A DNA stretch of 64,000 nt, taken from the NCBI GenBank assembly GCA_963851445.1, contig CAWKPH010000002.1, positions 25,716 through 89,715 on the forward strand, given 5' to 3'. Position 1 is the stretch's first letter, and the number at the start of each line of letters is the position of its first letter. Positions 1,618-33,437 of this stretch are shown one piece after another. The DNA comes from an uncultured bacterium. Lineage in GTDB: Bacteria; Patescibacteriota; Minisyncoccia; Phycocordibacterales; Phycocordibacteraceae. Position numbers and translations under genes: made by a program. The notes under the pieces were generated by a model that saw nothing but the letters and a program-made list of their open reading frames with translations, had not been told where the DNA came from and searched no databases.

Positions 1618-2452
1618 ATGAACATGGCATACAAGGCGAGCCACAAGGCAACCTCATTCAGCACCTCTATCAACGCGCTCCGCGCGTTTTTTCTTGCTCG
1701 CGACTTCGTTGAAGTTCACACGCAAGATAGACTTAGTATCCTCGCTGCCTGTGAGGATCCTACAACCGTTGCGACATACGAATATGAGAACCAACGTTGG
1801 CCACTTCCGCAGACGGGCCAAATGTGGCTCGAATATGAGTTATTGACCCAGCCTCAATATGCCGGAGTCTTCTGCGTCTCAACCAGCTATCGCAATGAGC
1901 CTAATCCCATTCCAGGACGACACGACAAAATCTTTCCCATGTTCGAATTCGAGGCATCCGGAACCATTGATGACCTGCGTACTTTAGAAGTAGATCTTTG
2001 TGAAATATCTTCAACTCGGAAGTGCACAGGAGTTTACGCACCACACCTATCGTGATCTTGCCAGTAGATACAAAACTGCTGAACTCACGAGCGAACATGA
2101 AAAACGCATCGAGGAAGATTTCGGAAGAGTTGCCTTCATTGAATATTTTCCCGAAGAAACATCACCATTCTGGAATATGAATCGTACACAAAAAGGTGCT
2201 GCGAAAATTGACGTCATTATTGATGGCATAGAGACCATAGGTTCGGCGGAGCGCAGCACTGATCCAGAAGATATGCGCAGGCGATTTAAAACCATCTCAG
2301 ACGGAGAATACGCAGATTTACTCTTTCGGATCTTCGGGCAGGAGCGGGTTGAGGCCGAACTCGAGCAATTTCTAGCGCTTTCATTCTTCCCCCGTTTTGG
2401 GGGTGGGATTGGCATGACCCGCATGATGCGAGCTTTGGAAAAAAGCAGTTAA
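1618..2452 (+). pseudogene. class II aaRS catalytic-core-like protein (AsnA/archaeal asparagine synthetase-like), interrupted by a +1 frame change
   Basis: ORF 1618–2055 carries an aaRS class II motif-1/2-like region ('FFLARDFVEVHT', 'STSYRNEPNPIPGRHDKIFPMFEFE'). ORF 2000–2452 (GTG-initiated, different frame) carries 'FIEYFPEETSPFWNM' and a motif-3-like 'FGGGIGMTRMM'. The two frames overlap by 55 nt; frame 2 is closed by a TAG at 1991–1993, so the shift lies between 1994 and 2055. Confidence 0.55.
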
Positions 2453-2470: not shown

Positions 2471-3517
2471 ATGGCTCATCAGTCGCTCTATCGTGCGTAT
2501 CGTCCTTCAAACTTTAAGGAGGTTGTAGGACAGGAACAAATAACTAAGGCGCTTATTGAGCAGATGGCTTCTGAAAAGGTAGGACATGCTTATCTCTTCG
2601 CCGGTTCTCGCGGCCTTGGCAAAACCTCAATTGCGCGAATATTCGCAAAAGAACTTGGCACCACTGAGCGTGACTTATATGAAATTGATGCTGCTTCCAA
2701 TAACAGTGTCGACGACATCCGTGCACTTACAGAAAATGTCTACACGCTCCCATTTGAGTCGAAATATAAAGTCTATATTCTCGATGAGGCGCACATGCTT
2801 TCGAAGGGCGCATGGAATGCATTTTTAAAGACTCTCGAAGAACCACCTGCGCACGTAATATTCATTCTTGCGACGACCGAGCTGTCGCGTATTCCTGAAA
2901 CTGTTCAATCGCGCTGCCAGGTATATGAATTCAAGAAACCATCACGTATGGGTCTTGCAAAATTAGTTGTCGAAGTTGCAAAGAAAGAAGGATATACGAT
3001 TGAATCCTCAGCAGCAGATCTTATCGCAATTCTTTCAGAAGGTTCTTATCGCGACTCACTTTCAGTACTTGAGAGAATATTTGGCTCAGTGCAGGGAAAG
3101 AAAATTACGCGTGAAGATGCAGAACTTGCGACCGGCGCGCCTAAGCACGAACTCATAGAAAAATTCGTTACCGCACTATCAGAGGAGAATGCAAGCAGCG
3201 CACTTGGTGTCCTTCGTCGTGCTACGAATGAAAGTATTGACATGCCGCTCTATCTTTCGCTCGTTTTAGAGTATGTTCGCACCATATTGTTGGTTCGATT
3301 TGCCTCTGAACTCCGTAAGGAATTAGAGGATGAGCTTGGCACTGATGAATATGCTGAAGTGGAGAAGCTAGCAATGGCTAAGGATTCGAAGCTAACGCAC
3401 GAGACACTCCGTGTCCTACTCGATGCCACCGAACGGATGCGTTTTTCGCCGATTCCATCTCTATCACTTGAACTTGCCGTCTTTGAGCTTATCGGGCAGG
3501 ATGGAGAAAGCGCATGA
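2471..3517 (+). CDS. dnaX: DNA polymerase III subunit gamma/tau (short form)
   Basis: 'YRPSNFKEVVGQEQ…FAGSRGLGKTSIARIFAKEL…ILDEAHML' are the clamp-loader AAA+ Walker A/B and N-terminal motifs. Confidence 0.85.
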   Translation: MAHQSLYRAYRPSNFKEVVGQEQITKALIEQMASEKVGHAYLFAGSRGLGKTSIARIFAKELGTTERDLYEIDAASNNSVDDIRALTENVYTLPFESKYKVYILDEAHMLSKGAWNAFLKTLEEPPAHVIFILATTELSRIPETVQSRCQVYEFKKPSRMGLAKLVVEVAKKEGYTIESSAADLIAILSEGSYRDSLSVLERIFGSVQGKKITREDAELATGAPKHELIEKFVTALSEENASSALGVLRRATNESIDMPLYLSLVLEYVRTILLVRFASELRKELEDELGTDEYAEVEKLAMAKDSKLTHETLRVLLDATERMRFSPIPSLSLELAVFELIGQDGESA

Positions 3518-3559: not shown

Positions 3560-3631
3560 TGGGAGATCGTCTAACGGTAGGACAGCGGCCTTTGAAGCCG
3601 TGAATCTAGGTTCGATCCCTAGTCTCCCAGC
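3560..3631 (+). tRNA. tRNA-Gln (anticodon UUG)
   Basis: Cloverleaf folded by hand: acceptor TGGGAGA/TCTCCCA with a U1:A72 pair and G73, D-stem GTC/GAC, anticodon stem GCGGC/GCCGT, loop CTTTGAA (anticodon TTG), T-arm CTAGG-TTCGATC-CCTAG. Confidence 0.8.
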
Positions 3632-4149
3632 AGACTTGGACAGGTCGCCAAATCGGCCATCAGCAGGAACGGTTTCGCGGCGCAGACGTTGAGTTTTCCA
3701 GCCGCCATCGTGGGGTTTGATGCAACGGTTTTCAGAATCATCCGCTTTTCGTCGTCGGGAGCGACGGAAAACCAATCCGCGGCCTGGTTGCAAAACGAAA
3801 TCAGCTGGCGCAAGGGTTTGATGCAATCCTCCGACTCCGCAGGCCCAGCAAGCTTTTCGGCAAATCGTCGCTGCTCTGCCTGAAGGGTCTCTCGCTGCAG
3901 GATAAATTCCTCATCAGTGAGTAGGTTGCGCAGCCGTAGGCTGGTGAGCTCACGGAGTTGTCCCTGAACGCTCTTGAGCGCCTTTTCCGCCAACGCGCGG
4001 CCGGCGACTAGTTCCGCCTTCAACTGGTCGTTGAGAAGTTCGAGGGTCGACGTCATCCAGTCATCGATACCCGGATCGGGGCGTACGCCGCCACAGGGCG
4101 CACCATTCTGCAGATCGACGCTGACACGCCAGTTGTTCTCTTTCGTTTG
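3619..4149 (-). pseudogene. C-terminal fragment of a large serine recombinase-like protein (coiled-coil region), GC-rich, no intact catalytic N-terminus
   Basis: Minus-strand frame is open 4149→3619. The translation 'LKAELVAGRALAEKALKSVQGQLRELTSLRLRNLLTDEEFILQRETLQAEQRRFAEKL' resembles the C-terminal coiled-coil of large serine recombinases. The stop overlaps the 3' end of tRNA-Gln, and the DNA is visibly GC-rich compared with the flanking sequence. Confidence 0.35.
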
Positions 4150-4851
4150 GCGGCCGACTCAGGAGAGTCGCCGATACAATCAATTGCAGTAGCCGACGAC
4201 GGCACCGTCTTTTTCTCCACCGAAAACCGGGTCTTTGCTCTGCTGGATGGGGGAGCGTTGTCGATCGTCAACAACAACGGGGGCGAGTTGCGGATCCGCG
4301 AGGGATACCTCTACGTGCTCAATCCAAAGGGCCCGCTCCTATTCCGGGTCAGTCCCACGTCGAAACAAATCTTCGCCGGAGGAGGTCAATGAAAATCGTC
4401 AGATTGCGACTGAGATCGGGACCAATTCAGCAGATTGAAGCGGGACCTCCGCCTCTCGAATCAAGCGGGTCGATTCTGCGTCAGGAGACGATCGAACCTG
4501 TCGACCATCGCCCACGCGAGTCTTTCGCGGAATGACATTGCTGCTTCTCTATCCTCGTCGTACGCGACACCAACAGACAGGTATTTTCTCACCGAGTCTC
4601 TGAGCGCGGTGTCCCCGACAAGGATTGCCGCGACATCATCTATAGATAGTGAATTGACGTCGTGTCTGTCCCGATCTGACTCCCCAGACACCGACGCAAA
4701 CCAGCTATCTATAGCAGCTTTGACGTCATGCCGCCTGCCCAGGGGATCATTGTTAATAATATTTGGAGAAGTATTCCTTTCGTAACTTTGCATTTGCCTA
4801 GAATGCTAACACGATTTTCAGTCTTCGGCGCCATCGATCGTGTGGACAGCA

Positions 4852-5493
4852 TTATCGCAAGCCAACATTATTTTTCCGATCGTTCGCCTTATCAAGGACG
4901 TCGCGCCGCGCCGCCGCGCTGCGGTCGCCAGTGTCCAGACCGCGCTGCCTATGATCGCCATTAATCGCAACGCGAATTGACCGAAGCGCCTCGGCGTAAA
5001 GTCCTCGACGTGCCTCATCCTGCGCCCACCGAAATTGTTCATAAGCATCCGTGGCGGAGGGATTCCTACCAATAACTACAAGATTGTTTATACCTTCATC
5101 CAACACCCCAAGACGTTCGGATAGATCACTGAAACCCCATTCCAAAGCCGAAACGATTTCGCGGCTTGAATCGCGGATCTCGGACTCGATACCGGAGAGG
5201 CCTTTGCGAACTGTGTTGTCAAGGTCGGTGATGCTCTCACGCACCTCCAGGTTTGTCCGCGCGACATCACTGAGGCGGCCCGAAAGCAATTCGTTTCCAT
5301 CGGCCATGTTTTTGGAAACCTGGAGTCCGATTTCCTTTAGATCATCTATGCTAGCCACAAGCTCTCTTGTTTGACGGTCGGCGATAAAGCCAATACCGCG
5401 CATCTGAAAGCGGTACCTCATCCATTGGGGATAGGTGAAATTAGTTTTGACGTTGTATTCGTAGTTGTACCTGAGGTCGTCAATAAAAGACAT
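4852..5493 (-). CDS. hypothetical protein (213 aa) within the GC-shifted island
   Basis: Intact ORF preceded by GGGAG about 8 nt upstream of the ATG on the minus strand. No family recognised. Confidence 0.35.
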   Translation of the reverse strand: MSFIDDLRYNYEYNVKTNFTYPQWMRYRFQMRGIGFIADRQTRELVASIDDLKEIGLQVSKNMADGNELLSGRLSDVARTNLEVRESITDLDNTVRKGLSGIESEIRDSSREIVSALEWGFSDLSERLGVLDEGINNLVVIGRNPSATDAYEQFRWAQDEARRGLYAEALRSIRVAINGDHRQRGLDTGDRSAAARRDVLDKANDRKNNVGLR

Positions 5494-5584
5494 TATCCGA
5501 TCTCCCAGAGAAATGTCGCTGTATAAAGTTCACTATCAACAGGTGGAAAATGGTGGCCAGTAATACACATTGTATACTGTGATC

Positions 5585-6025
5585 ATGTCTGAAGCACCGC
5601 GATTTACACGTGCTGTCGATCCGGAAAGTCGCCGCGAAGCGAGAGTCGAAGTTCTCAAGGGTCGTGTTGACGGAATCTTAGCGGGCACTTTTCTATTTGC
5701 GCAACGAACGATTGAGCAGCTCCAACAATACATGGCCGATCCCTCGGAGGTAAGCGCCACTGGCCAGGCGCCAGCTTGGATGAATGACGAGCTCATTCGA
5801 GAGTTGGCCCAGGCGGAGGTGAGAAATCAACTCACCCGCGCCAAAGACGTACTTGCGGCAGGCTACCCAGTTAACGCAGAGGCTTGGTTGCATGGAGTTG
5901 AGGAGCAAATCAAGTTGCATGAATCGCTTGGCCGTCTGACAGCTGAGGAGGCGGCGGACTTTGAGTCCGAAGTAGCGGAAATCAGAAATGGTCCGGACGA
6001 TCCGACCCAGGAGGACTCGGAATGA
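5585..6025 (+). CDS. hypothetical protein (about 147 aa), divergent from 4852–5493
   Basis: ORF track gives 5570–6025. A -10-like TATACT at 5572–5577 suggests a near-leaderless start at the second Met (5585). No family recognised. Confidence 0.3.
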   Translation: MSEAPRFTRAVDPESRREARVEVLKGRVDGILAGTFLFAQRTIEQLQQYMADPSEVSATGQAPAWMNDELIRELAQAEVRNQLTRAKDVLAAGYPVNAEAWLHGVEEQIKLHESLGRLTAEEAADFESEVAEIRNGPDDPTQEDSE

Positions 6026-6299
6026 TCCCAACGGTGGATATTGCATAAGGGAAAGGGTCTTGGATTCGTGTTCCGCCGCCGCTGATTGGGTCGTCGACCT
6101 GCACGCTCCGGTGATTCCGACGCGCCCTGGCAAAGACTTAGGTCGGTTCGCGCGGAACTAAGCCGCAATCGTATGCGCGTGACGCATAGAGCACCGTCGT
6201 GCGCCAAACGGCCACCGACCCCAAAATCAATCCGGACCTCCCGCGCATTCGGGAGCGCCGGAATGGTTCCGACGCTCCCGTCATGCACGGGAGATTTCA

Positions 6300-6506
6300 A
6301 TGAACAGTACAGTTCTTTCCAAGCCGCGGGCCGACGTGCACCAGGCCGTCACCGACAAGATCATCACCGCCATCGAAGCGGGTGCCGGGGAGTTCGTCAT
6401 GCCTTGGCATCACAAGGGGCCAGCCAACGGCGGACAGGGTGGTGCGTCGGCCACGACCGGCTTCCCATACACAAGCCCATCCGGCGAGGAGAGCGCCATA
6501 GCCTGA
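6300..6506 (+). pseudogene. N-terminal fragment of an ArdC-like (antirestriction, DUF1738-type) protein
   Basis: 'SKPRADVHQAVTDKIITAIEAGAGEFVMPW' matches the conserved ArdC N-terminal pattern (DVYQ.VTD.II.A.E.G…PW). The reading frame then degenerates and stops after 68 aa. The DNA is very GC-rich. Confidence 0.45.
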
Positions 6507-6681
6507 TCGAGGTGGTTTGCGATGACTCCAAGCCCCTTCGGGCGTTGAGGGGGTGCCGGAAGATTGCCTGGTGCATCGAGGTCCCATGGCGAATAACCAA
6601 ACGGTGGCAATCAATTTCCAGGAGACCATATTGGTATCAACCGGCAATGACAACAATTGAGAGATATGTTAACTTTTCACT

Positions 6682-7131
6682 ATGGAATCATCACCTGATA
6701 CGAACGGTCCTAGTCCACGTACAAGGAAGGAAGATACAAAGTCAAAGCGCGCTTTAAGCTATGCGGCCGTTTCGGTTGCATTATTGCTATTGATAATCCT
6801 TACTGTCGGTGGATATATTCTACGCTCGTCATATTACCAACAAAAGCCAGCTGTAGATGTACAGACACTAAATCATTTTGTATGTCGTAGCTCGACATAT
6901 TCGATCTCCGTCTTCAATAATGGAAATGCGACGGGCGTATCGCTGGATGCGCCATCGGGACCAGTGACATTCTTAGGTCAAATTGGACCGGGTAACTATT
7001 TCACTCCCGAATCAGTTATCCCGTCTAGCTATATATCGTATTTATCGGAGCTGGGGACGTGCAAAAACTCCGATGGCTTGACGTTTTATCAAGTCTACAA
7101 GAGCGTTTCTACGAGCACATTGTCTCATTGA
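6682..7131 (+). CDS. hypothetical membrane-anchored protein (low-GC ORF embedded between GC-rich segments)
   Basis: 149 aa with one N-terminal TM helix (LSYAAVSVALLLLIILTVGGYIL) and then a Ser/Thr-rich domain. The composition matches the host-like low-GC DNA. Confidence 0.4.
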   Translation: MESSPDTNGPSPRTRKEDTKSKRALSYAAVSVALLLLIILTVGGYILRSSYYQQKPAVDVQTLNHFVCRSSTYSISVFNNGNATGVSLDAPSGPVTFLGQIGPGNYFTPESVIPSSYISYLSELGTCKNSDGLTFYQVYKSVSTSTLSH

Positions 7132-8115
7132 GCGAATGAAATAAGGGCCGCCTATTGCAGGGCTAATCCGAACGATTGGACGGGATCTGAAAAGCGGGGC
7201 GCTGTCCGGGGCGGAAGCTTTAGACTACCTGGAACCTCGGCCCCGCCAGGACGGCTGGTGCCCCGCGCCAGTTCTCGAATGGGCTGATAGCTAGCCCGCT
7301 ACCATGCCTGCCACCGAAGCCGGCCATTGCGGCGATGAATTGGCCAGCGGCTGCGGGGCTGGCGGCAAGACCTTGGACCTGCTCCGCAGGATCAATCACT
7401 GTGGTCCCGCCGCTACCGTCAAGGGTGGTGACGACTAAGCGGGGGTTGGCCTCGCCCTGGGTCCATTCGGACTTGCCGACGACGCGGCGTCGGGTACTCC
7501 AGCTCTTGCGAGTGGTCCGCATGAAGTCCTTGAAGCGGCGGACCGGCTGAGACGCCGCTCTCCCGGAGGCACCCTTCATCATGACGTTCATATCCGTCCC
7601 ATCCGTAGGTGACCATGCACTCATCGCGGGTTGAGCAAAGTGTTCGGAAACCACACCTGCCTAGATTCCGGTCGGTTTTCACACTAGCTGCGAACGCTTT
7701 GAGCGTGGCAAGGGGCTGTTGTTGTCGAGTAGCTCGGCCCCTTCTCGTCTGACGAGCTCAGAGAACTTTTTATTGAGAAAGGAATAAGTTATTCAAATGA
7801 GGATCTCAATGAGATTATTTATCCACTGATTGAAAAGTATTTAGCAGCCGGATATGCCATAGCGATTGACGCTAACTGTTCAAGAGTAGTGGGTAATACT
7901 CTTACCGGTGATAACTTCCGAGAATTTCAATCTCGAGCAGAGATGGAAAATACCGGCTTATCTGTCATAAAATATGGAAAACGCCATAAAGGAAACTCGT
8001 GGTACGTATGGACGTATAACGACCATGCTCACTTAGGCTAGAAGCATTCTGGATACTTTTAGAAAGCCATCTTCTAATAATAAAAACGTCCCCGGATTTA
8101 AAGCCGGAGACGCGG

Positions 8116-8427
8116 TCAGAATTGCCTCGAATTAGGCGAAACATTCTCGAAATGTTCTATGGAGAAATCAATGCCCGGCTCCTCCTCTAGATAAACTCTG
8201 AGGCGCGTAACGCCGATCACAATACGATCGAGTGTGTAATGGGCCCCAAGCTTGAGGTAGCGATCAACAGCTTCGAGCCCGAGTATCCTCCAGCTGTATC
8301 GGATTGTTGCGCCCGGTCGAGTTCGAAAGTCCATTACTGGACCCAGTAGCATTCGAGGTCTACGCGGCGTGATGAAATCACACGCGGACTGATCCCCAAA
8401 GATTTGGGCAAAATTACCATCAGCCAA
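8116..8427 (-). CDS. hypothetical protein (103 aa)
   Basis: ORF only; no recognisable motif. Confidence 0.25.
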   Translation of the reverse strand: MADGNFAQIFGDQSACDFITPRRPRMLLGPVMDFRTRPGATIRYSWRILGLEAVDRYLKLGAHYTLDRIVIGVTRLRVYLEEEPGIDFSIEHFENVSPNSRQF

Positions 8428-8539
8428 AACTTATTCTCCCAGATGAACAAACGCAGAGAAAAGAATAGCATATACTGAATAAATTTCCAACATTCTCCCA
8501 AAAAGCCAATGTAATTGCTAAATCAGCTCATTATGCTGA

Positions 8540-8577
8540 AAAAGTGACACTTAAAAGTCTGTTTTCGTGTCACTTTT
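8540..8577 (-). terminator. probable terminator for 8666–9688
   Basis: 11-bp perfect inverted repeat AAAAGTGACAC…GTGTCACTTTT with a T-run on the minus strand. Confidence 0.45.
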
Positions 8578-8665
8578 GTCACTATTTGAGGCCTATTGGA
8601 TTCAGTACCGTACCCGGTACCCTTATTCTCAGAGAATTCCAGCGGTGAATGCAAAAAAATCTCAA

Positions 8666-9688
8666 TCAGTTAACAATTACCGTAGAGGTCACTGTAGCCG
8701 ACTGACCACTTGCGTTTGATACGGTAAAGATCGGCGCATACGTGCCTGCATTCTCATAGGCATGTGTAAACGTTGCTGAGGATTGAACACCTCCAGCATT
8801 AGCGGATTCGAGTTGATAGGGAACTGCAACCTCGTCTCCCCACCGTACTGAATACTGTAAATTAGTTGAGGCTCCAGTGTCTCCCACATTCACCGTCCAT
8901 GTTCCCGTTTCTCCAGGTGAAAGTTCGGCTGGGCCCTGAATTCCGTTAATTGTAAGTGGTAACCCGGGAATTCCGTTTCCTGAAGTCACTGTAAATGTCT
9001 CACTATTGCTTGTCCCATTCGCATTCTCAACTGAAACAGTGTACGTTCCGGGCCCTACCAAGCGTACATATTCTGGACACATAAGATCACCCGTACAATT
9101 TGGTCCTATCGAAGAGGGAACTGTGAAGGTTAATGTTTCAAGTGGATTTCCGCAATTAAGATTTGACGTGCACATGATATTCATGGTTGAAGTGACTGGA
9201 ATATTCGATATGGGGCCACCTCCAAAGAGGATTGTGTTATTTGAAGTAAAGCCATATCCGGTAATAGTTACCTGGGTGCCCACACTACCAGACGTAGGAT
9301 ACAGTGACTGAATGCTAACTGACGAATTAGGCGGCAGGGAACTACAGGTTAAGTTCTCAATAACCCCTCGGGTAATTGGGCCAACATATCCTGTTGGATT
9401 GACTCCATTCGCTTCCTGAAAACGCTTAACTGCGGCAAAAGTCAAAGGGCCAAAAACACCTACAGGAGAATAAGGAAAATAGGCTTTTTCTTGCAGATAT
9501 GTTTGAAGCGTCGTTACCTCATTGCCTGACGAGTAATCGGTAGAACCGTAGTAGATATCATTAGTGAGCGATATGCAGGCAATCGGAGGTGTCATAACTT
9601 GAGCGTGGGCAATTCCCTGAGGCGCTGACACGAAAACAAGTCCTGTCATTAGCAATATTCCAATATATTTTTTCATAGGTGTTGTCAT
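8666..9688 (-). CDS. secreted protein with a peptidoglycan-binding (PG_binding_1-like) domain followed by IPT/TIG-like beta domains
   Basis: Signal peptide (MKKYIGILLMTGLVFVSAPQGIAHA). 'LQTYLQEKAYF…GVFGPLTFAAVKRFQEANGVNPTGYVGPIT' is the PG_binding_1 signature. 'GTYTVSVENANGTSNSETFTV' resembles IPT/TIG repeats. Paralog of 12310–13785. Confidence 0.7.
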   Translation of the reverse strand: MTTPMKKYIGILLMTGLVFVSAPQGIAHAQVMTPPIACISLTNDIYYGSTDYSSGNEVTTLQTYLQEKAYFPYSPVGVFGPLTFAAVKRFQEANGVNPTGYVGPITRGVIENLTCSSLPPNSSVSIQSLYPTSGSVGTQVTITGYGFTSNNTILFGGGPISNIPVTSTMNIMCTSNLNCGNPLETLTFTVPSSIGPNCTGDLMCPEYVRLVGPGTYTVSVENANGTSNSETFTVTSGNGIPGLPLTINGIQGPAELSPGETGTWTVNVGDTGASTNLQYSVRWGDEVAVPYQLESANAGGVQSSATFTHAYENAGTYAPIFTVSNASGQSATVTSTVIVN

Positions 9689-9760
9689 AAAGGATAAGAC
9701 GCTCTACTCCAGGTATTATTACATTAAAGCAACACTCTAGTAACAGCTCTGGTATATACT

Positions 9761-10330
9761 TTGGCCATGACAACCGAAACCTCAAAGACAGCTCTATTAG
9801 TCATGGACGTACAACCGAACATCCTTGAGCGACTGCCAAACAAAGATGAATATCTCGCGAAAGTAAGGATGGCCATAAATATAGCTCATGAAAAGAAGCT
9901 TCTGGTAATCTACGTTGTTGTCGGCTTTCGGTCGAACTTAGTTGAAGTAAGTAGTTTAAACAAATCATTTGGCGCAATAACAAAAGAAGCTGCTGTTGCG
10001 ATGGTAAATCCACTTCCTGCCATTGCGCCCCTTACAGACGACATTGTCGTCGTGAAGCGTCGTGTAAGCGCATTCAGTGGTAGTGATCTCGAAGTCGTTC
10101 TGCGCGCTCAGGGCATTCGGTGTCTTATACTCAGCGGAATTGCCACAAGCGGTGTTGTACTATCAACCATCCGCGAAGCAGCCGATAAGGATTATCAAAT
10201 GATCGTTCTTTCAGATCTGTGCGCCGATTTTGATTCGGAGGTGCATTCTGTTCTTATCAACAAAATATTTCCAAGACAAACTGACGTTATGACCAGTGAG
10301 GAGTGGATGAATCAGCAGCGTAACAAGTGA
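9761..10330 (+). CDS. isochorismatase-family cysteine hydrolase
   Basis: 'TALLVMDVQ', 'VVKRRVSAFSGSDLEVVLRAQGIRCLILSGIATSGVV…LSDLCAD' give the isochorismatase-like catalytic Asp/Lys/Cys arrangement. Confidence 0.75.
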   Translation: MAMTTETSKTALLVMDVQPNILERLPNKDEYLAKVRMAINIAHEKKLLVIYVVVGFRSNLVEVSSLNKSFGAITKEAAVAMVNPLPAIAPLTDDIVVVKRRVSAFSGSDLEVVLRAQGIRCLILSGIATSGVVLSTIREAADKDYQMIVLSDLCADFDSEVHSVLINKIFPRQTDVMTSEEWMNQQRNK

Positions 10331-10342
10331 TATAATCAAGCC

Positions 10343-10921
10343 ATGCAGTATTACAGCCTCTTTCTTGGCATTGTGTGGCTGGTGTTTGTTACGTACTGGC
10401 TCATTTCTGCCCTTGGTGCAAAAAGAAATGTGTACCTTAATTACAACGGACTTCTTGTCCGAATTGCAATCGTTTTCGTAATCTTGATACTTTTTCTACA
10501 CATGCAACTTTTCCCAGAGATTTCCTATCCCTCATTCCCATTCTTAAGCGTTAGACTTGCGAATCCAATCATCCGCATCACAGGAGATATTCTTGCTGTT
10601 ATTGGTGTTGCATTTGCGATATGGGCACGAGTATATCTAGGCAGGAACTGGGGCATGCCAATGTCCGTTAAAGAGAATCCTGAACTCGTGACAAGCGGGC
10701 CCTATAGATACGTGCGTCATCCTATTTACAGCGGAATGCTTCTTACAATGATCGGGTCGGTACTCGTTGAAGGACTTGTATGGATTATTCCGCTTATATT
10801 GTTTGGGATTTATTTTTTGTATGCGGCAAATCGTGAGGAAAAACTAAAGCTTCAAGAGTTTCCCGATCAATACTCTCTTTACAAAAAGAAAAGTAAAATG
10901 TTGATCCCCTTCATTTTTTGA
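10343..10921 (+). CDS. isoprenylcysteine carboxyl methyltransferase / phospholipid methyltransferase (ICMT/PEMT) family membrane protein
   Basis: Multi-TM protein with 'SGPYRYVRHPIYSGMLLTMIG…VEG', the ICMT/PEMT C-terminal signature. Confidence 0.7.
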   Translation: MQYYSLFLGIVWLVFVTYWLISALGAKRNVYLNYNGLLVRIAIVFVILILFLHMQLFPEISYPSFPFLSVRLANPIIRITGDILAVIGVAFAIWARVYLGRNWGMPMSVKENPELVTSGPYRYVRHPIYSGMLLTMIGSVLVEGLVWIIPLILFGIYFLYAANREEKLKLQEFPDQYSLYKKKSKMLIPFIF

Positions 10922-10960
10922 AAGTGCATTGAAAGATTAGAGAAGTGGTAGTATCCGCTT

Positions 10961-11533
10961 ATGGCATATAAGATTATTGTCATACCCGGTAACGGCGGCT
11001 CAACACCCAATAGTTCTTGGTATCACTATCTAGAACAAACGCTGACCTCTTCGTCTCATATAACAGTTGTAAATACTAAGTTTCCTGATGCGCTGCTTGC
11101 GCGCAGAAAATACTGGCTTCCATTCATAGAAGCACTCGGAACTGATGAAAAGACGATCCTCGTTGGACACTCGTCAGGCGCAGTTGCAGCTATGCGATAT
11201 GCACAAACTCACACAATACTTGGCTCTATACTTGTTGCAGCATGTTACACAGATCTAGGTGTCTGGACCGAAACATTGAGCGGTTACTACAAAGATCCGT
11301 GGGAATGGGATTTAATCAGGAAGAATCAGAAGTGGATAATCCAATTTGCCTCCGTTGATGATCCTTTTATACCAATAGCGGAAGCACGATTCGTCCATGA
11401 ACACCTGGCATCCGAATATCACGAATATGGGAACCGAGGACACTTTATCGAGAACGAATTACCCGAAGTCGTAACGGCGATCAAGAGAAAATTGGATTTG
11501 ATTGTGCCACACCAACATAACCGTGCTCGATAA
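10961..11533 (+). CDS. alpha/beta-fold serine hydrolase, RBBP9/YdeN-like
   Basis: 'IIVIPGNGGSTP…WY' and the nucleophile elbow 'VGHSSGA' in a 190 aa product are typical of PF06821-like serine hydrolases. Confidence 0.65.
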   Translation: MAYKIIVIPGNGGSTPNSSWYHYLEQTLTSSSHITVVNTKFPDALLARRKYWLPFIEALGTDEKTILVGHSSGAVAAMRYAQTHTILGSILVAACYTDLGVWTETLSGYYKDPWEWDLIRKNQKWIIQFASVDDPFIPIAEARFVHEHLASEYHEYGNRGHFIENELPEVVTAIKRKLDLIVPHQHNRAR

Positions 11534-11742
11534 TGGCTACTTTCTGTAGTACTTTCATATGGTAATTATCTAGAAAGATACCACGGAGAATTTCTAACTG
11601 CTATGGTGAATGGTGGACTCATATCCTGATTTGTTTAAGCATAGAGCCTACTCAAACTCTCCCCATCCCCTATACTCGAAGGCAATTTGTGGTATACTAT
11701 CTTAAACGCGTACTGCGTTTCTAATAACTATCTGCTACTTCT

Positions 11743-12210
11743 ATGTTTACTCTCATGGCTAGTGTATTCGCTGGACTTTCAATAGCTTGGGGAAGTTTAT
11801 TCGGAGGTCACACATCTCCACCCCATACACCTCCTGGTATGACAAACCATACCACTCCACCGGGCGGTGGGATGGGATCAATGCCTCACCAAGCGCCATT
11901 TATGGTCGTGCCTGTCTTGCGTGGCAAGGTGACGGTTATAGCGGGTACGACCTTAACTGTTGTTGGTGGAACTGGTGTTAACTCAGCAGCCACAACAACC
12001 TATATGGTCGACGCAAGTAACGCGAAAGTCCGCAAGGACATGGTGGCCTCAACCGTAAGTGCTATACAAGTAGGGGATAACGTGCTCATCAATGGATGGG
12101 TAAGTGGGAGTAATGTAAGGGCAGCACTGATCATTGACGGCATACCGGTTGGCAGAATGCAGCCGCTAACTTCTCCAGCAGGACAGAGCTCGGCGCAGGG
12201 AACTTCGTAA
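11743..12210 (+). CDS. hypothetical secreted/membrane-anchored protein (DUF5666-like beta domain)
   Basis: N-terminal hydrophobic segment and Pro/Thr-rich linker, then 'GKVTVIAGTTLTVVGG…VGDNVLINGWVSGSNVRAALI'. Confidence 0.4.
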   Translation: MFTLMASVFAGLSIAWGSLFGGHTSPPHTPPGMTNHTTPPGGGMGSMPHQAPFMVVPVLRGKVTVIAGTTLTVVGGTGVNSAATTTYMVDASNAKVRKDMVASTVSAIQVGDNVLINGWVSGSNVRAALIIDGIPVGRMQPLTSPAGQSSAQGTS

Positions 12211-12252
12211 TCCTTATAAAAGTGAAGGAAAACTAAGTAAAAAGCCTAGAAA

Positions 12253-12283
12253 AGAGCCCTCCGGAGGAGGGCTCTTTTCTTTG
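12253..12283 (+). terminator. rho-independent terminator
   Basis: AGAGCCCTCC-GGA-GGAGGGCTCT followed by a T-run. Confidence 0.65.
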
Positions 12284-12309
12284 ACAAAGGACTTGCAAAA
12301 TAGTGAAAT

Positions 12310-13785
12310 GTGAGGTATAAGACAGGCATACTAATGAGGCATATTATGAAAAAAACAGCATACCTAAGCGTTATTTTTACTCTTGCAGCAGCCGGCCTAG
12401 CATCAACGGCCAATGCGCAGACGACCTATGTCTACCAGACACCGGGATACTCAACCCCTGCCTACGGGGTGGCGCCAGCATACAACGAAGTCTCTCCGTA
12501 TGCTGAGCTAGCACCAACCTCAGGCTGCATTGATTTGACCAATTATCTTGAACTCGGGTCAACCGATTCGGAAACTATAGGCCAAGTCACTCTTCTCCAG
12601 GAATTCTTGAACCGAACAGGATACCTTAGTGGCGTATCGGGTATTTTTGACACGGGTACCTACGGCGCAGTTATTAACTATCAAAATTCCCATGGTATTC
12701 CTCCAACAGGAACGGTGGGGCCCATAACTGGAGCCTCCATTAACAGTCAAAGCTGCGGCGCATCAGTTGAGCCGATAAACTACAATCCAACCCCATATCA
12801 GAATACAAATCCATATCAGTACAACCCTGGCTACTACGGTAATCCTATTTCGATCTCCTCACTCTCAACTAACTCAGGATATGCAGGCGAAATCGTAACG
12901 ATATATGGTTCAAACCTCTCAGGATTTAACGATGAGGTTCATATAGGGAATTCAACCGTTGCGCCCAATAGTACCTCGAATGATTCACTTTCATTTGTTG
13001 TACCGTCATTCAGCTACGGAACCTATGCCGTATACGTCTCTAACAGTTTTGCTACAAGTAACTCACTTCAATTCACCGTCATCGGCGGTAATAACAACTG
13101 TTACTCAGGAGAAACTTACCAGTGCAATTGCGTAACACCTCTTGTCTACAACTACGGCTCTTCGTATAACTACAACCCGAGCTATCCAAATCAATGTGGC
13201 AATGGATACTCGAGCGTATCGCTCAACTCTCTTAGTAGCACCTATGGATATCCAGGAGAAAGTGTGACCATCTTTGGCTCCGGATTCTCAAGTGATAACA
13301 GCGTCTACTTTGGAAACGAAACGCTCACCGATGTCTACTCAAGTGATAATGGTACGCAACTGACATTCACTGTCCCATCAAATTATCCTTCAGGAACCGT
13401 TAGCATTTCGGTTTCAAACGGAAATGGCTCAACAAGTAATTCGCTCACATTCACCGTAAATGGCTCAAACAACTGCAGTTCATATAACTCGTACAATTCG
13501 TACAACAATGACTGTATATGGAACGGTCAAAGCGGACAGCCAAACATCTCGTATATCTCACCCGCACAGTCCTACCCTGGATCTAACGTAACAATCGAAG
13601 GCTCCAACCTTTCGGAAGGAGACACAATCTACTTCAATAATTCAAGCGTCGTAAGTGGATCATCCTTCGACAATGGCACGCAGATGAATTTTACTGTTCC
13701 ATACCTCAACCCAGGAACATATAGCGTCTATGTAACGAATCAAAATAGGGAATCAAGCAATATTTTCAGCTTTACCATTGAATAA
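12310..13785 (+). CDS. secreted protein: PG_binding_1-like domain plus three IPT/TIG-like repeats
   Basis: Signal peptide. 'IGQVTLLQEFLNRTGYL…GTYGAVINYQNSHGIPPTGTVGPIT' is the PG-binding signature. Three ~90-aa repeats each end in '…SNSLxFTV'. Paralogous to 8666–9688. Confidence 0.7.
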   Translation: MRYKTGILMRHIMKKTAYLSVIFTLAAAGLASTANAQTTYVYQTPGYSTPAYGVAPAYNEVSPYAELAPTSGCIDLTNYLELGSTDSETIGQVTLLQEFLNRTGYLSGVSGIFDTGTYGAVINYQNSHGIPPTGTVGPITGASINSQSCGASVEPINYNPTPYQNTNPYQYNPGYYGNPISISSLSTNSGYAGEIVTIYGSNLSGFNDEVHIGNSTVAPNSTSNDSLSFVVPSFSYGTYAVYVSNSFATSNSLQFTVIGGNNNCYSGETYQCNCVTPLVYNYGSSYNYNPSYPNQCGNGYSSVSLNSLSSTYGYPGESVTIFGSGFSSDNSVYFGNETLTDVYSSDNGTQLTFTVPSNYPSGTVSISVSNGNGSTSNSLTFTVNGSNNCSSYNSYNSYNNDCIWNGQSGQPNISYISPAQSYPGSNVTIEGSNLSEGDTIYFNNSSVVSGSSFDNGTQMNFTVPYLNPGTYSVYVTNQNRESSNIFSFTIE

Positions 13786-13820
13786 AATCATTCAAGAAAT
13801 TAACAAAGCTGCGGAAAAAA

Positions 13821-13850
13821 AGACGCCCTCATATGAGGGCGTCTTTTTAA
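13821..13850 (+). terminator. rho-independent terminator (likely bidirectional)
   Basis: AGACGCCCTC-ATAT-GAGGGCGTCT followed by TTTTT. Confidence 0.7.
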
Positions 13851-13860
13851 GTACTATTGC

Positions 13861-14076
13861 CTAGTTTACGCCGTTAACCGCGCTTTGTATGCCGCCCACA
13901 TAATTTGTGAGGAAGTAGGGAATAACAAAGACTAGGCCAATAGCTGGAAGCACTACTACAACGATCGAAATGACCATTGTCCAGAAGAAATACTTACGAG
14001 TTTTCTCAACGGAGATATATATTTTGTTAACTTTCTCCTCAAGTTCTGCAAAGCGCTGAGCAAGATCCGAATCCAT
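13861..14076 (-). CDS. small membrane protein (71 aa)
   Basis: Two predicted TM helices; no family recognised. Confidence 0.35.
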   Translation of the reverse strand: MDSDLAQRFAELEEKVNKIYISVEKTRKYFFWTMVISIVVVVLPAIGLVFVIPYFLTNYVGGIQSAVNGVN

Positions 14077-14152
14077 AGAGACAGTATACGATAGGTAATA
14101 AGCTTATTTATCCACGGTGCATCTCTTTTCGGAAAAGATATACTGGGCTGAT

Positions 14153-14650
14153 ATGAGTCCGAATAATTCAAATAATATCCGCATTATCACTATTGTAGCA
14201 GTAGTTGTAGTTGCTCTAGGCGCTCTAGCGTATGCGCTTCTTGGCAAAAAAATGACCAACCCTCAAACACAGAGCAACCTAACGAGCCCCTCAACCCCCG
14301 CTACGGTAGCGCCAGGTCCCGTTGCAAGTGCACCCGTAACTTCCCAAACTCAGGAATATAAGGATGGAACTTACACGGCTACCGGTAGTTACTTTTCTCC
14401 CGGCGGAGACGAGAAGCTCGGCGTCACACTGACACTCAAGGATGACATTATCAGCGCTGCAAGCGTGACGCCTGAACCAGCAACCCCTAATGGTGAAAAA
14501 TTTCAAACTATTTTTGAACATAACTTTCAGCCACTCGTGGTCGGTATGAATATCAGTACGGTTCATCTCACAAAAGTTTCGGGGTCCTCGCTAACGGGAG
14601 GAGGATTCGATGATGCTCTTGCTCAGATTGAGGTAGAAGCGAAGAATTGA
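14153..14650 (+). CDS. membrane-anchored FMN-binding-domain protein (NqrC/RnfG/PplA-like flavinylation substrate)
   Basis: N-terminal TM anchor, Ser/Thr/Pro linker, then an FMN_bind-like domain ending in 'HLTKVSGSSLTGGGFDD', which resembles the [ST]GA[ST]-type flavinylation motif. An upstream GTG at 14117 is the alternative start. Confidence 0.6.
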   Translation: MSPNNSNNIRIITIVAVVVVALGALAYALLGKKMTNPQTQSNLTSPSTPATVAPGPVASAPVTSQTQEYKDGTYTATGSYFSPGGDEKLGVTLTLKDDIISAASVTPEPATPNGEKFQTIFEHNFQPLVVGMNISTVHLTKVSGSSLTGGGFDDALAQIEVEAKN

Positions 14651-14654
14651 TCCT

Positions 14655-15539
14655 GTGAATGCGGAAACGTTTGAAGCAATAGGTACGAAATGGCGGATTG
14701 AACTGCCTGACATGCCGCCTAAGAAACGTGATGCGCTTTTCGAAGGCATTAGAAGGCGCATCGATGTTTTCGATCATACTTATTCACGCTTCAAACATGA
14801 CTCGTTTATATCAGACATTGCGCGCACTTCAGGAGCCTATGAGCTACCTGCCGACGCGAGGCCCCTATTTGACCTCTACCGCAAGCTATACGAGCTTACA
14901 AATGGCAAGTTTACGCCGCTCATAGGTCAGGTGCTTTCCGATGCAGGCTATGATGCGCACTATTCCCTGAAGCCCAAGACTCTTTTGAAACCACCTGCAT
15001 GGGAGGACGCCCTTGTATACGAATTTCCCAAACTTACGGTTCTTGAACCAGTTCTTCTTGATTTTGGTGCAGGCGGTAAGGGATATCTTGTAGATCTAAT
15101 TTCAGAAATGATAGAAAGAGTTTTCGAGAATGATTCTAAAAGCATTCTTTCCTACAGCGTTAACGCAGGAGGTGATATACGCCTTAAGTCCAGCATCTCT
15201 CAAGGGGAACGCATTGGACTTGAACATCCGGATCATTCCGAACAAGTTATCGGTATCGCTACTATAAGCGAAGGGAGCATCTGCGGATCGGCAGGGAATC
15301 GCCGCACGTGGGGCGAATTCCATCACACGATTGATCCAGATACACTCGCTTCGCCGCAACACATTAAAGCTATATGGGTAACGGCTAAGAGCGCGCTACT
15401 CGCTGACTCTCTGAGCACGTGCCTCTATTTTGTTTCACCGGATTCTCTCCGCAGCTCGTATACCTTTGAGTATCTTATAGTGTATAAAGACCTGACTTTC
15501 GAATCCTCGCCTAATTTTCCAGCCAAACTCTTTACGTAG
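14655..15539 (+). CDS. apbE: FAD:protein FMN transferase (ApbE family)
   Basis: 'YSRFKHDSFISDI', 'GGKGYLVDLISE', 'GDIRLKS', 'HHTIDPDT' are ApbE family motifs. The GTG start overlaps the stop of the upstream gene. Confidence 0.8.
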   Translation: MNAETFEAIGTKWRIELPDMPPKKRDALFEGIRRRIDVFDHTYSRFKHDSFISDIARTSGAYELPADARPLFDLYRKLYELTNGKFTPLIGQVLSDAGYDAHYSLKPKTLLKPPAWEDALVYEFPKLTVLEPVLLDFGAGGKGYLVDLISEMIERVFENDSKSILSYSVNAGGDIRLKSSISQGERIGLEHPDHSEQVIGIATISEGSICGSAGNRRTWGEFHHTIDPDTLASPQHIKAIWVTAKSALLADSLSTCLYFVSPDSLRSSYTFEYLIVYKDLTFESSPNFPAKLFT

Positions 15540-29450: not shown

Positions 29451-29452
29451 GT

Positions 29453-33367: not shown

Positions 33368-33379
33368 TATTAAAAATAA

Positions 33380-33415: not shown

Positions 33416-33437
33416 GTGCTTCCTTCCGAAAGCAGTT

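What the first reader, a model, noticed from the sequence alone, without database searches (positions are those of the whole stretch)
3560..8100. Mosaic GC-rich block abutting tRNA-Gln with recombinase and ArdC-like gene fragments: degraded integrative/conjugative element or assembly chimera
The segment is a mosaic of visibly GC-rich stretches (3.63–4.8 kb, 6.05–6.66 kb, 7.14–7.74 kb) interleaved with low-GC pieces, which suggests repeated insertion/deletion or a chimeric join. Its left edge is directly at the 3' end of tRNA-Gln(UUG) (3560–3631), a classic integration site. The block contains no intact housekeeping gene. It carries a C-terminal coiled-coil fragment of a large serine-recombinase-like protein whose stop overlaps the tRNA end (3619–4149, minus), and a truncated N-terminus of an ArdC-type antirestriction protein (6300–6506), a marker of conjugative plasmids and ICEs. 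It also holds a divergent pair of unknown ORFs (4852–5493 and 5585–6025) that share an intergenic imperfect palindrome, CAGTAATACA-cat-TGTATACTG. At the right edge (about 7730–8041, plus) there is a roughly 100-codon open frame with no start codon, '…AIAIDANCSRVVGNTLTGDNFREFQ…', as if a resident gene was truncated by the insertion.
Basis: partly seen in the sequence, partly recalled or inferred. Interest (0 to 1): 0.6.

Follow-up and report, generated by a model that had tools for sequence, protein, structure and literature searches.

The report
Decayed serine-integrase island at tRNA-Gln
The GC-rich block is the wrecked remains of a mobile element that a large serine integrase inserted at the end of the tRNA-Gln gene of a tiny CPR bacterium. 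Intact relatives suggest that this integrase family carries its own attachment site inside its gene, so integration would rewrite the end of the enzyme.

Summary
tRNA-Gln(UUG) is at 3560-3631, and 3632-7732 is 55% GC against 46.5% for the rest of a Paceibacteria (CPR) contig.

The block holds only gene stumps:
- the last 152 codons of a large serine recombinase (LSR), 3622-4077 (-)
- about 40-50 codons of ArdC, 6309-6464
- the C-terminal part of a histidine phosphatase, 7733-8041
- several orphan ORFs

The left edge looks like a true attL, not an assembly join. Four other Patescibacteria dnaX-tRNA-Gln loci carry an LSR gene in this position: three full-length and one degraded. Further family members run into tRNA-Gln(CUG) or tRNA-Ser. 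Relatives without a tRNA continue past the same "LL" codons into a tail with a conserved DVRT motif. Its DNA resembles a tRNA T-loop placed 5 bp further out, which is the published attP/attB offset for these enzymes.

A related metagenome contig has ArdC, ParB, LSR and a coupling protein together, so a degraded conjugative-type element is the best reading. Nothing mobile is intact. A second assembly reproduces the mosaic exactly, so a chimera is unlikely.

The remnant is ordinary. The tRNA-targeting LSR family with attP inside its own gene is the interesting part.

The parts
3560..3631 (+). tRNA-Gln(UUG). It is intact, but the genome-encoded CCA is replaced by CAG. It forms the B arm of attL; the shared core CCAGC is at 3627-3631.
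   Evidence: ARAGORN and Rfam at 62.2 bits. dus-dnaX-tRNA-Gln is conserved in all 16 relatives scanned. Eight of the 16 relatives compared read cccagCCA where the window reads cccagCAG.
3622..4077 (-). Remnant of a large serine recombinase gene. Only the post-zinc-ribbon coiled-coil / C-terminal domain remains (152 codons). The catalytic, Recombinase and Zn-ribbon domains are deleted. The last codons, L-L-G-D-stop, are the complement of the tRNA end.
   Evidence: phmmer finds 460 relatives; the best is 64% identical. Full-length relatives carry PF00239 + PF07508 + PF13408. tblastn maps the fragment to residues 123-274 of P0003 and finds no upstream domains in the window. PHROG integrase hit. 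The same tRNA-encoded ending is seen in L007.
4147..4392 (+). 81-codon ORF that looks like a beta-propeller repeat, probably a gene fragment. Unidentified.
   Evidence: ORF list. No hit in Pfam, NCBIfam, PHROGs or PADLOC.
4461..4793 (-). 110-codon orphan ORF.
   Evidence: ORF list. No family hits.
4852..5493 (-). 213-codon orphan ORF, predicted to be an all-helical coiled coil.
   Evidence: Only a self hit among 5.8 billion proteins. No hit in plasmids, viral contigs, PDB or PADLOC. AlphaFold model is helical throughout, pLDDT 75.
5558..5579 (.). Imperfect palindrome CAGTAATACA-cat-TGTATACTG in the spacer between the divergent ORFs. Candidate operator, weak evidence.
   Evidence: Sequence. One of two such palindromes in 4.5 kb, where 0.87 is expected. 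1.6% of shuffles of the spacer contain one.
5570..6025 (+). 151-codon orphan ORF (TTG start at 5570; alternative ATG at 5585).
   Evidence: ORF list. No hits in plasmids, viral contigs, PDB or PADLOC.
6309..6464 (+). Remnant of an ArdC antirestriction gene: N-terminal 40-50 codons only. The metallopeptidase domain is absent.
   Evidence: Pfam ArdcN at 26.9 bits, profile 2-44 of 123. 62% identity to residues 2-41 of the 302-aa Mesorhizobium ArdC. 45% identity to residues 4-54 of the intact ArdC of L091.
6682..7131 (+). Low-GC (0.44) 149-codon ORF with an N-terminal hydrophobic helix. It is host-like in composition and lies between the two GC-rich parts.
   Evidence: No family hits.
7412..7639 (-). 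Internal fragment of an IS1380-family transposase gene, residues about 247-338 of 465.
   Evidence: Pfam DDE_Tnp_1_4 at 30.6 bits, profile 270-316 of 435. NCBIfam IS1380. tblastn gives 43% identity over 92 aa to a Bradyrhizobium IS1380. blastn gives about 80% identity over 120 nt.
7733..8041 (+). C-terminal remnant of a histidine-phosphatase (His_Phos_1) gene. It has low GC, no start codon and no N-terminal half. It marks the right edge of the GC-rich block.
   Evidence: Translation. Homologs P0153 and P0154 carry PF00300 and end with the same ...NDHAHLG.
15498..15523 (+). Candidate attR, unproven: TTCGAATCCTCGCCTAATTTT-CCAGC followed by CAAACTC. It is a T-loop-like motif at attP-type spacing from the core, and lies 19 nt before the gene where synteny with the closest relative resumes.
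   Evidence: It is the only match to the attP-arm pattern in the 64-kb window on either strand; 0.017 matches are expected in 12.4 kb. Synteny resumes at 15542. Partial similarity to the relatives' attB downstream sequence. Against: it lies in the low-GC 3' coding end of an ApbE gene.

Best explanation
The block is the immobile, decayed left part of a genomic island. A large serine recombinase (LSR) inserted that island at the 3' end of tRNA-Gln(UUG) in a Paceibacteria (Patescibacteria/CPR) chromosome.

Shown:
- The tRNA/LSR junction at 3627-3633 is in the same register as in other integrated family members. The LSR reads on the minus strand and ends in codons specified by the complement of the tRNA acceptor end.
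- Only the last 152 LSR codons survive.
- The other recognisable genes are also stumps: ArdC, IS1380 transposase and a histidine phosphatase.

Inferred:
- The element was of the ArdC-ParB-LSR-coupling-protein type seen in a related contig, came from a GC-richer donor, and was then gutted by deletions.
- The IS1380 piece is a separate later insertion that was itself deleted.
- The histidine-phosphatase gene was cut at the right-hand deletion or insertion border.

Proposed mechanism for the family:
- attP lies inside the 3' end of the LSR gene.
- Its outer arm imitates the tRNA T-loop, 5 bp further from the crossover than in the tRNA.
- Recombination at the core CCAGC leaves the tRNA body intact, removes the encoded CCA, and replaces the enzyme's C-terminal tail with a few tRNA-encoded residues.

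Nothing in the window can move or be expressed as a mobility function any more. The tRNA is probably still functional.
For: Host and site:
- dus-dnaX-tRNA-Gln is conserved in 16 of 16 Paceibacteria relatives scanned.
- The closest relative, L003, has 2.8 kb between the tRNA and collinear homologs of window genes from 15542 onward. The window has 11.9 kb there.

LSR stump:
- 460 phmmer relatives. Full-length ones have Resolvase + Recombinase + Zn_ribbon_recom domains.

Same arrangement elsewhere:
- L007: 490-aa LSR ending ...MLGD* inside the tRNA.
- L019: 514-aa LSR.
- L029: degraded LSR.
- L096: 500-aa LSR, in another dus-dnaX-tRNA-Gln locus.
- L090: tRNA-Gln(CUG). L093 and L095: tRNA-Ser.

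Junction:
- L089 and L090 are about 93% identical up to CGACTGCTG and then diverge, one into the native tail and the other into tRNA antisense.
- The window and L086 share the 15-mer GTCCAAGTCTGCTGG and then diverge.
- In my motif sort of the 147 family representatives with a full C-terminal domain, 56 carry the D[DE]VRT tail motif and about 11 have tails that read like translated tRNA antisense.
- The distance from the KPF codons to the T-loop-like motif is 59 nt in attL forms and 64 nt in attP-like forms. This matches the 5-bp ZD-motif shift of Rutherford et al. 2013 (PMC3783163).

Element type:
- L091 carries ArdC, HTH, ParB | LSR, T4CP, with the same divergent ArdC/LSR orientation as the window.
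- L086 and L094, which carry the closest LSR relatives, each encode a ParB-like protein.

Not an assembly artefact:
- Logan contig L002 equals window 3578-13846 at 100% identity.
Against: - No intact attR and no LSR tail remnant were found. The extent of the island is therefore undefined.
- The only attR candidate (15498) lies in low-GC coding sequence.
- The orphan ORFs between the LSR and ArdC stumps share nothing with L091, L086 or L094. A single-element origin for the whole 3.6-6.6 kb is therefore inferred, not shown.
- A low-GC ORF (6682-7131) interrupts the GC-rich DNA.
- Both assemblies may derive from the same reads, and both Logan contigs break inside the tRNA (3578-3587).
- attP/attB assignments rest on sequence comparison of unrelated metagenome contigs. 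No circular form or empty site of the same strain was seen, and no activity has been tested.
Confidence: 0.75

Rival explanations
1. Assembly chimera. The GC-rich pieces come from other, GC-rich organisms in the sample and were stitched into the CPR contig, for example at the shared tRNA sequence.
For: - Independent Logan contigs break inside the tRNA at 3578-3587.
- The tRNA is 98.7% identical to those of other Paceibacteria.
- The fragments have sharp borders and no internal stop codons.
- The window differs from Logan by a homopolymer indel at 2003-2005, which hints at an error-prone assembly.
Against: - The Logan contig carries the tRNA 3' part, the whole mosaic and 5.7 kb of host-like DNA in one piece at 100% identity. 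Its other end is explained by a perfect 32-nt palindrome.
- The tRNA/LSR junction is in the same codon register as in seven other independent loci. A random misjoin would not reproduce that.
- Contig-level synteny with L003 spans the region.
Confidence: 0.05
2. A junkyard of unrelated pieces. Only the LSR stump comes from an integrated element. The ArdC, IS1380 and orphan segments are separate scraps of foreign DNA, for example taken up by this competent epibiont and fixed by illegitimate recombination in a tolerant spot beside the tRNA.
For: - The fragments are short, cleanly cut and of differing GC (0.53-0.62), and a host-like ORF lies between them.
- The orphan ORFs have no counterpart in the related elements.
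- The ArdC and IS1380 pieces are most similar to Hyphomicrobiales plasmids, at 77-81% nt identity over 64-120 nt.
- L003 also has a GC-rich patch right after its tRNA-Gln but no LSR.
- Two further small GC-rich patches exist in the window.
Against: - ArdC and an LSR of the same family are neighbours, in the same relative orientation, in L091.
- Deletion decay of one element explains cleanly cut stumps equally well.
- The nt identities cover short conserved motifs in GC-rich codon usage and do not prove recent transfer.
Confidence: 0.15
3. The island is larger. The whole 3632-15518 (11.9 kb) is one LSR-integrated island bounded by attL at the tRNA and an attR at 15498-15523. The GC-rich mosaic is only its left third, and the low-GC surface-protein, isochorismatase and ApbE genes are cargo.
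For: - The attP-arm pattern (T-loop-like hexamer, 15 nt, CCAGC) occurs once in the 64 kb on either strand. It is in the right orientation, lies 19 nt before the point where L003 synteny resumes, and is followed by CA as in relatives' CCAGCCA. 0.017 matches are expected by chance.
Against: - The motif lies within the 3' coding end of ApbE and is AT-rich, unlike the GC-rich LSR stump and its relatives' attP arms.
- Some genes of 8-15 kb have weak homologs downstream of tRNA-Gln in relatives that keep a CCA-type attB: L004, L012 and L024.
- No LSR tail remnant is present.
Confidence: 0.3
4. The block is still functional cargo. The intact divergent ORFs 4852-5493 and 5570-6025, with their palindromic spacer, form a working regulator/effector or defence module retained by selection.
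For: - Both ORFs are intact.
- Their spacer is AT-rich and holds a promoter-like site and a palindrome.
Against: - No homolog was found in any library searched, including PADLOC and PHROGs.
- ORFs of this length arise readily in GC-rich DNA.
- The model is a featureless coiled coil.
Confidence: 0.1

Closest known systems
Large serine integrases of phages and ICEs (phiC31, Bxb1, A118/LI, SPbeta SprA, TnpX, CcrAB)
   Same: - Full-length relatives have the Resolvase-Recombinase-Zn ribbon-coiled coil architecture.
- att sites are short with a small common core and no long direct repeat.
- The outer-arm motif is 5 bp nearer the crossover in the attB-type arm than in the attP-type arm, as in PMC3783163.
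   Different: - The targets are the 3' ends of tRNA genes (Gln, Ser). Mageeney et al. 2020 (PMC7192596) say this was not previously reported for serine integrases and needs proof.
- attP appears to lie inside the integrase ORF, so integration exchanges the C-terminal tail.
- In the window the gene is only a stump.
Myxophage Mx8 intP/intX and SSV1-type integrases (attP inside the int gene)
   Same: The attachment site lies within the integrase coding sequence, so the integrated copy encodes a protein with a different or split C-terminus. Mx8 also targets a tRNA gene. This rests on my own knowledge of the literature and was not checked here.
   Different: Those are tyrosine recombinases with a different mechanism. 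Here the enzyme is a serine recombinase and only a short tail is exchanged.
tRNA-associated genomic islands with tyrosine (P4-type) integrases
   Same: The island abuts the 3' end of a tRNA gene with the integrase gene at the junction. The tRNA stays functional. The islands decay in place.
   Different: No tRNA-fragment direct repeat flanks the island. The integrase family is different. The encoded CCA is lost rather than rebuilt.
ICE/IME backbones that carry ArdC, a ParB-like protein and a type IV coupling protein (as in contig L091 and many alphaproteobacterial plasmids)
   Same: An ArdC stump lies divergent from the LSR stump, as in L091. The ArdC piece is most similar to Hyphomicrobiales plasmid genes.
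   Different: No ParB, relaxase, coupling protein or T4SS gene survives in the block. The T4CP homolog at 26670-29450 has homologs at 54-67% identity in the relatives L017 and L018, so it is probably a native CPR gene.
Genomic islands of Patescibacteria (PMC12455944)
   Same: [quoted passage not shown] This is one more such island, in a variable region.
   Different: Here the integration site and enzyme are identified. In a term search of that paper, 'tRNA', 'integrase' and 'recombinase' do not occur.

Membership tests
Large serine recombinase (gene in the window) | N-terminal Resolvase catalytic domain (PF00239) | tested here: not met
   No Pfam hit in any frame of 3.6-8.5 kb. tblastn with six full-length relatives finds only the C-terminal part.
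Large serine recombinase (gene in the window) | Recombinase domain (PF07508) and Zn-ribbon domain (PF13408) | tested here: not met
   Absent. Homology starts just after the Zn ribbon of P0003, at residue 123.
Large serine recombinase (gene in the window) | C-terminal coiled-coil region homologous to bona fide LSRs | tested here: met
   phmmer E = 1e-54 to 1e-11 against 152 proteins; the full-length ones have all three LSR domains. A family HMM scores 144 bits.
LSR-integrated element | attL: integrase-proximal junction with the target, in the register shared by other integrated copies | tested here: met
   Same junction in L007, L096, L090, L093 and L095. Sharp divergence from the attP-like relatives L086 and L089 at the same nucleotides.
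LSR-integrated element | attR at the far end | tested here: inconclusive
   Single candidate at 15498-15523. No LSR tail remnant.
LSR-integrated element | Recombination activity, excised circular form or empty site | not testable with these tools
   Needs reads or experiments.
ArdC antirestriction protein | Complete ArdcN ssDNA-binding domain (PF08401) | tested here: not met
   Only profile positions 2-44 of 123 are matched, although the score of 26.9 is above the cutoff of 22.6.
ArdC antirestriction protein | C-terminal zincin-like metallopeptidase domain (PF18818) | tested here: not met
   No hit in the window. It is present in the L091 homolog.
IS1380 insertion sequence | Full DDE transposase | tested here: not met
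   Only residues about 247-338 of 465. Pfam scores 30.6, below the cutoff of 34.7. NCBIfam scores 16 against a cutoff of 180.
IS1380 insertion sequence | Terminal inverted repeats and target-site duplication | tested here: not met
   No inverted-repeat pair flanks 7.1-7.75 kb in the repeat scan.
Integrative and conjugative element (ICE) | Relaxase, coupling protein and mating-pair-formation genes within the element | tested here: not met
   None found in 3.6-8.5 kb. Only a relative (L091) has a T4CP next to the LSR.
Histidine phosphatase superfamily (His_Phos_1) | N-terminal RHG motif and second catalytic His | tested here: not met
   The N-terminal half is absent. The homologs' VVTHGFF aligns to GYAIAID.

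The most novel reading that the evidence does not exclude
The stump belongs to an undescribed class of large serine integrases, found in CPR bacteria and in GC-rich organisms, that target the 3' ends of tRNA genes (Gln, Ser).

These enzymes keep attP inside their own 3' coding end. The conserved D-V-R-T tail peptide would then be the protein shadow of a tRNA T-loop mimic that serves as the zinc-ribbon-domain motif.

Integration would swap the enzyme's C-terminal tail. The integrated and excised copies would then encode different proteins. That is a built-in state sensor that could bias directionality, as intP/intX does in Mx8.

The same site preference would let such elements cross between distant hosts, which would explain GC-rich conjugative-element DNA in a 46% GC epibiont.
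Probability: 0.45. Interest if true: 0.65.

Novelty: new variant of a known kind. Interest (0 to 1): 0.5.

Why it matters
On its own the block is dead DNA: one more decayed island in a CPR genome. Its value is as a pointer in three directions.

- It shows that the tRNA-Gln downstream of dnaX is a recurrent landing site for serine-integrase elements in Paceibacteria. Mobile elements and gene-transfer routes in this group are poorly known.
- It exposes a family of large serine integrases with tRNA targets and an attachment site inside the integrase gene. Use of tRNA genes by serine integrases was flagged in 2020 as unreported and needing proof (PMC7192596). The att sites predicted here make that directly testable. 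They could also add compact, naturally conserved landing sites to the integrase toolbox.
- It gives a concrete example of conjugative-element DNA (ArdC, with ParB and T4CP in relatives) reaching an ultra-small epibiont.

Tried and rejected
- Structured RNA as the cause of the GC-rich, ORF-poor DNA. Rfam at gathering and at E <= 1 finds only the tRNA.
- attR as a direct repeat of the tRNA 3' end. None found with up to 3 mismatches. I later recognised that this is not expected for a serine integrase.
- Homologs of the orphan ORFs. Searches returned nothing: the search for homologous proteins, plasmid tblastn, viral contigs, PDB, PADLOC/PHROGs.
- A structure model of ORF 4852-5493 gave a generic coiled coil, so no fold search was run.
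- The first metagenome scan with the LSR stump alone found nothing. A 14-sequence alignment was too diverse to seed a scan. A 4-sequence alignment worked.
- LSR remnants beside tRNA-Gln in other relatives (L006, L015), suggested by tblastx. They were not confirmed by the family HMM or by translation.
- A Markov (tetranucleotide) 'foreignness' profile added little beyond GC.
- A proteobacterial origin for the two other GC-rich patches (33.4-34.0 kb and 47.9-48.6 kb). No plasmid, Pfam or PDB hits.
- A recent transfer from Rhizobiales was considered because of 77-81% nt matches. I judged it unproven because the matches are short conserved motifs, and relatives of the host clade themselves range from 0.46 to 0.64 GC.

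Full report
**Host and context**

The window is from a Patescibacteria (CPR) genome of the Paceibacteria/Minisyncoccia type. The DnaX protein encoded at 2471-3517 is 60-77% identical to proteins of MAGs with those names. The order dus - dnaX - tRNA-Gln(UUG) is kept in all 16 relatives scanned.

The closest relative is L003 (JACDGK010000002, DnaX 77%). It has 2.8 kb after its tRNA-Gln and then collinear homologs of the window genes at 15542, 17075, 17644, 19439, 20445 and 20975. The window therefore holds an 11.9-kb variable region, 3632-15514, and the two flanks belong together.

**The observation**

- tRNA-Gln(ttg) is at 3560-3631.
- 3632-7732 is 54.9% GC, against 46.5% for the rest of the window. 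54% of 300-nt windows inside the block reach 0.55 GC, against 2.7% outside.
- Two of the 'low-GC interleaves' (about 4.75 and 5.5 kb) are ordinary AT-rich intergenic regions. Only 6641-7140 is a host-like piece.

**What the pieces are**

1. 3622-4077 (-) is the region that follows the zinc ribbon in large serine recombinases (LSRs).
   - A full phmmer scan found 460 relatives, the best 64% identical.
   - The full-length ones carry Resolvase + Recombinase + Zn_ribbon_recom domains.
   - Nothing upstream of residue 123 of P0003 is left in the window.
2. 6309-6428/6464 (+) encodes residues 2 to about 50 of ArdC. The metallopeptidase half is gone.
3. 7412-7639 (-) encodes residues about 247-338 of an IS1380 transposase.
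4. 7733-8041 (+) is the C-terminal part of a His_Phos_1 protein. It ends exactly like its homologs (...NDHAHLG) but lacks the N-terminal half and the catalytic His.
5. ORFs at 4147-4392, 4461-4793, 4852-5493, 5570-6025, 6682-7131 and 8116-8427 have no recognisable relatives.
6. There is no structured RNA.

**The left edge as a recombination junction**

tblastn with full-length LSRs against the relatives' loci showed LSR genes on the minus strand directly after tRNA-Gln:
- L007: 490 aa. Its stop lies inside the tRNA and its tail ...SEMLGD* carries the same tRNA-encoded L-G-D-stop as the window's ...PSLLGD*.
- L019: 514 aa.
- L029: degraded into two pieces.

A family HMM confirms that these belong with the window's stump.

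Further members were found through metagenome and protein look-ups:
- L096 is another dus-dnaX-tRNA-Gln locus, with an intact 500-aa LSR that overlaps the tRNA by 31 nt.
- L090 runs into tRNA-Gln(CUG).
- L093 and L095 run into tRNA-Ser(CGA). The L095 LSR is cut at its N-terminus by an rve-type IS.

**attP inside the gene**

- L089 (no tRNA) and L090 (tRNA) are about 93% identical up to ...CGACTGCTG and then diverge abruptly. L089 continues into a native tail (AVINDVRTF...). L090 continues into tRNA antisense.
- The window and its close relative L086 share GTCCAAGTCTGCTGG and then diverge in the same way.
- I sorted the 147 family representatives with a complete C-terminal domain by tail motif. 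56 have the tail motif D[DE]VRT about 17-22 residues after a conserved KPF. About 11 instead have tails that read as translated tRNA antisense (RDSNPR..., ESNL...).
- At the DNA level the DVRT codons (GAYGTTCGAACC) resemble a T-loop. The motif starts 64 nt after the KPF codons in tail-bearing (attP-like) genes and 59 nt after them in tRNA-joined (attL) genes, including the window.
- A 5-bp inward shift of the zinc-ribbon-domain motif in attB relative to attP is the rule established for serine integrases (PMC3783163).
- The core common to the tRNA, the attP-like sequences and relatives' empty sites is CCAGC (3627-3631). Eight of the 16 relatives compared, all without a detected LSR, read cccagCCA. 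The window and L007 read cccagCAG and cccagCAT, so the encoded CCA is lost on integration.

**Element type**

L091 is a 44.8-kb metagenome contig at 0.57 GC. It carries intact ArdC, an HTH protein, a 456-aa ORF and ParB on one strand. It carries an LSR of this family plus a TrwB/TraG-type coupling protein on the other. The window's ArdC and LSR stumps have the same divergent orientation. L086 and L094 carry the closest LSR relatives (60-64% identity, GC 0.62), and each encodes a ParB-like protein.

I therefore read 3632 to about 6640 as the gutted backbone of an integrative, probably conjugative or mobilisable element from a GC-richer donor. The IS1380 fragment at 7.1-7.7 kb would be a separate decayed insertion, and the His_Phos stump would mark the damaged chromosomal border.

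The donor is unknown. The ArdC and IS1380 stumps match Hyphomicrobiales plasmids best. Those matches are short, and the host clade itself spans 0.46-0.64 GC.

**Extent of the island**

No tRNA direct repeat exists, and none is expected for an LSR. A pattern built from the attP arms (T-loop-like hexamer, 15 nt, CCAGC) occurs once in the whole window on either strand, at 15498-15523.
- In favour: it is in the right orientation, is followed by CA (CCAGCCA, as in relatives' empty sites), and lies 19 nt before the gene where L003 synteny resumes. 0.017 matches are expected by chance in 12.4 kb.
- Against: it lies in the low-GC 3' end of an ApbE gene. Some genes of 8-15 kb have weak homologs downstream of tRNA-Gln in relatives.

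I give about 0.3 to an 11.9-kb island.

**Chimera question**

- A Logan assembly of run ERR11630394 gives a 10,269-bp contig identical to window 3578-13846.
- Its right end coincides with a perfect 32-nt palindrome.
- Its left end, and the end of the dnaX contig L001 (3587), fall in the 5' part of the tRNA. That tRNA is 98.7% identical to those of several other Paceibacteria in the genome collection, so a shared-tRNA repeat among co-occurring relatives is a plausible cause of the break. I could not check this in the sample itself.
- The biologically specific junction register is the strongest argument against a misjoin.
- Reads were not available, so the internal junctions remain unverified by depth.

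**Comparison with what is known**

Genomic islands are common in Patescibacteria (PMC12455944). Decayed islands beside tRNAs are ordinary.

What is not ordinary is a serine integrase at a tRNA. Mageeney et al. 2020 found 14 of 297 serine-integrase elements at t(m)RNA genes. They wrote that such use 'has not been reported previously' and needs experimental proof (PMC7192596). The large LSR survey of Durrant et al. 2022 does not mention tRNA at all (PMC10083194). An attP inside the integrase gene is known to me for the tyrosine integrases of Mx8 and SSV1 (from memory). I do not know of it for serine integrases.

**Verdict**

The window feature itself is a non-functional remnant. It is a new variant of a known kind, because it reveals a tRNA-targeting LSR family with intragenic attP that is active in CPR bacteria.

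Noticed in passing
window 1618-2452 (indel at 2003-2005): The AsnA-like gene is split into two frames by an extra A in a homopolymer (GTGAAATATC). The Logan contig L001 has GTGAATATC and an intact 216-aa product, and L003 is also in frame. This is either an assembly error or a strain variant.
   Followed up: partly
window 33320-34130: An isolated GC-rich patch (up to 0.68 GC) holds an intact 196-aa ORF (33438-34028, minus) with a signal-peptide-like start. No Pfam, PADLOC, PDB or plasmid match.
   Followed up: partly
window 47850-48670: A second isolated GC-rich patch (up to 0.66 GC) has overlapping ORFs on both strands (47951-48583 plus, 47942-48526 minus). No match in any library tried.
   Followed up: partly
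window 26670-32452: A 926-aa homolog of a type IV coupling protein (37% identity to the L091 T4CP over 413 aa) is followed by a 999-aa protein. The T4CP-like gene has homologs at 54-67% identity in the relatives L017 and L018, so it is probably the native CPR type IV system and not part of the island.
   Followed up: partly
window 13817-13848: A perfect 16+16-nt palindrome (AAAAAGACGCCCTCAT/ATGAGGGCGTCTTTTT) after the 491-aa TIG/PG-binding gene, probably a bidirectional terminator. The Logan contig ends exactly here.
   Followed up: partly
window 50215-50304: ARAGORN calls a 90-nt tRNA-Gly(gcc), but Rfam does not report it at gathering score. It may be spurious or unusual (long or interrupted).
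   Followed up: no
L003 11860-12560: The closest relative also has a GC-rich (0.56) patch with unidentifiable ORFs directly after its tRNA-Gln, but it has no LSR and keeps the encoded CCA. A 192-aa ORF (11271-11849) also runs from the dnaX end through the tRNA.
   Followed up: no
L019 13404-13946: Next to the intact tRNA-Gln-associated LSR lie an XRE-type HTH gene and the start of what looks, from its sequence alone (no family scan run), like an OLD/AAA-type ATPase gene (MKLNRVEIKNFRSVK...). This may be defence cargo. The contig ends there.
   Followed up: no
L095 5172-6777: Another decayed family member. The N-terminus of the LSR is replaced by an rve-type IS transposase, and the remaining 258 codons run into tRNA-Ser(CGA). 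This shows the same kind of decay as in the window.
   Followed up: partly
window 8086-8427: A 103-codon ORF (8116-8427, minus; GC 0.52) is followed by a good intrinsic-terminator-like hairpin (8113-8086). It is probably a real small gene of unknown function at the right border of the block.
   Followed up: no
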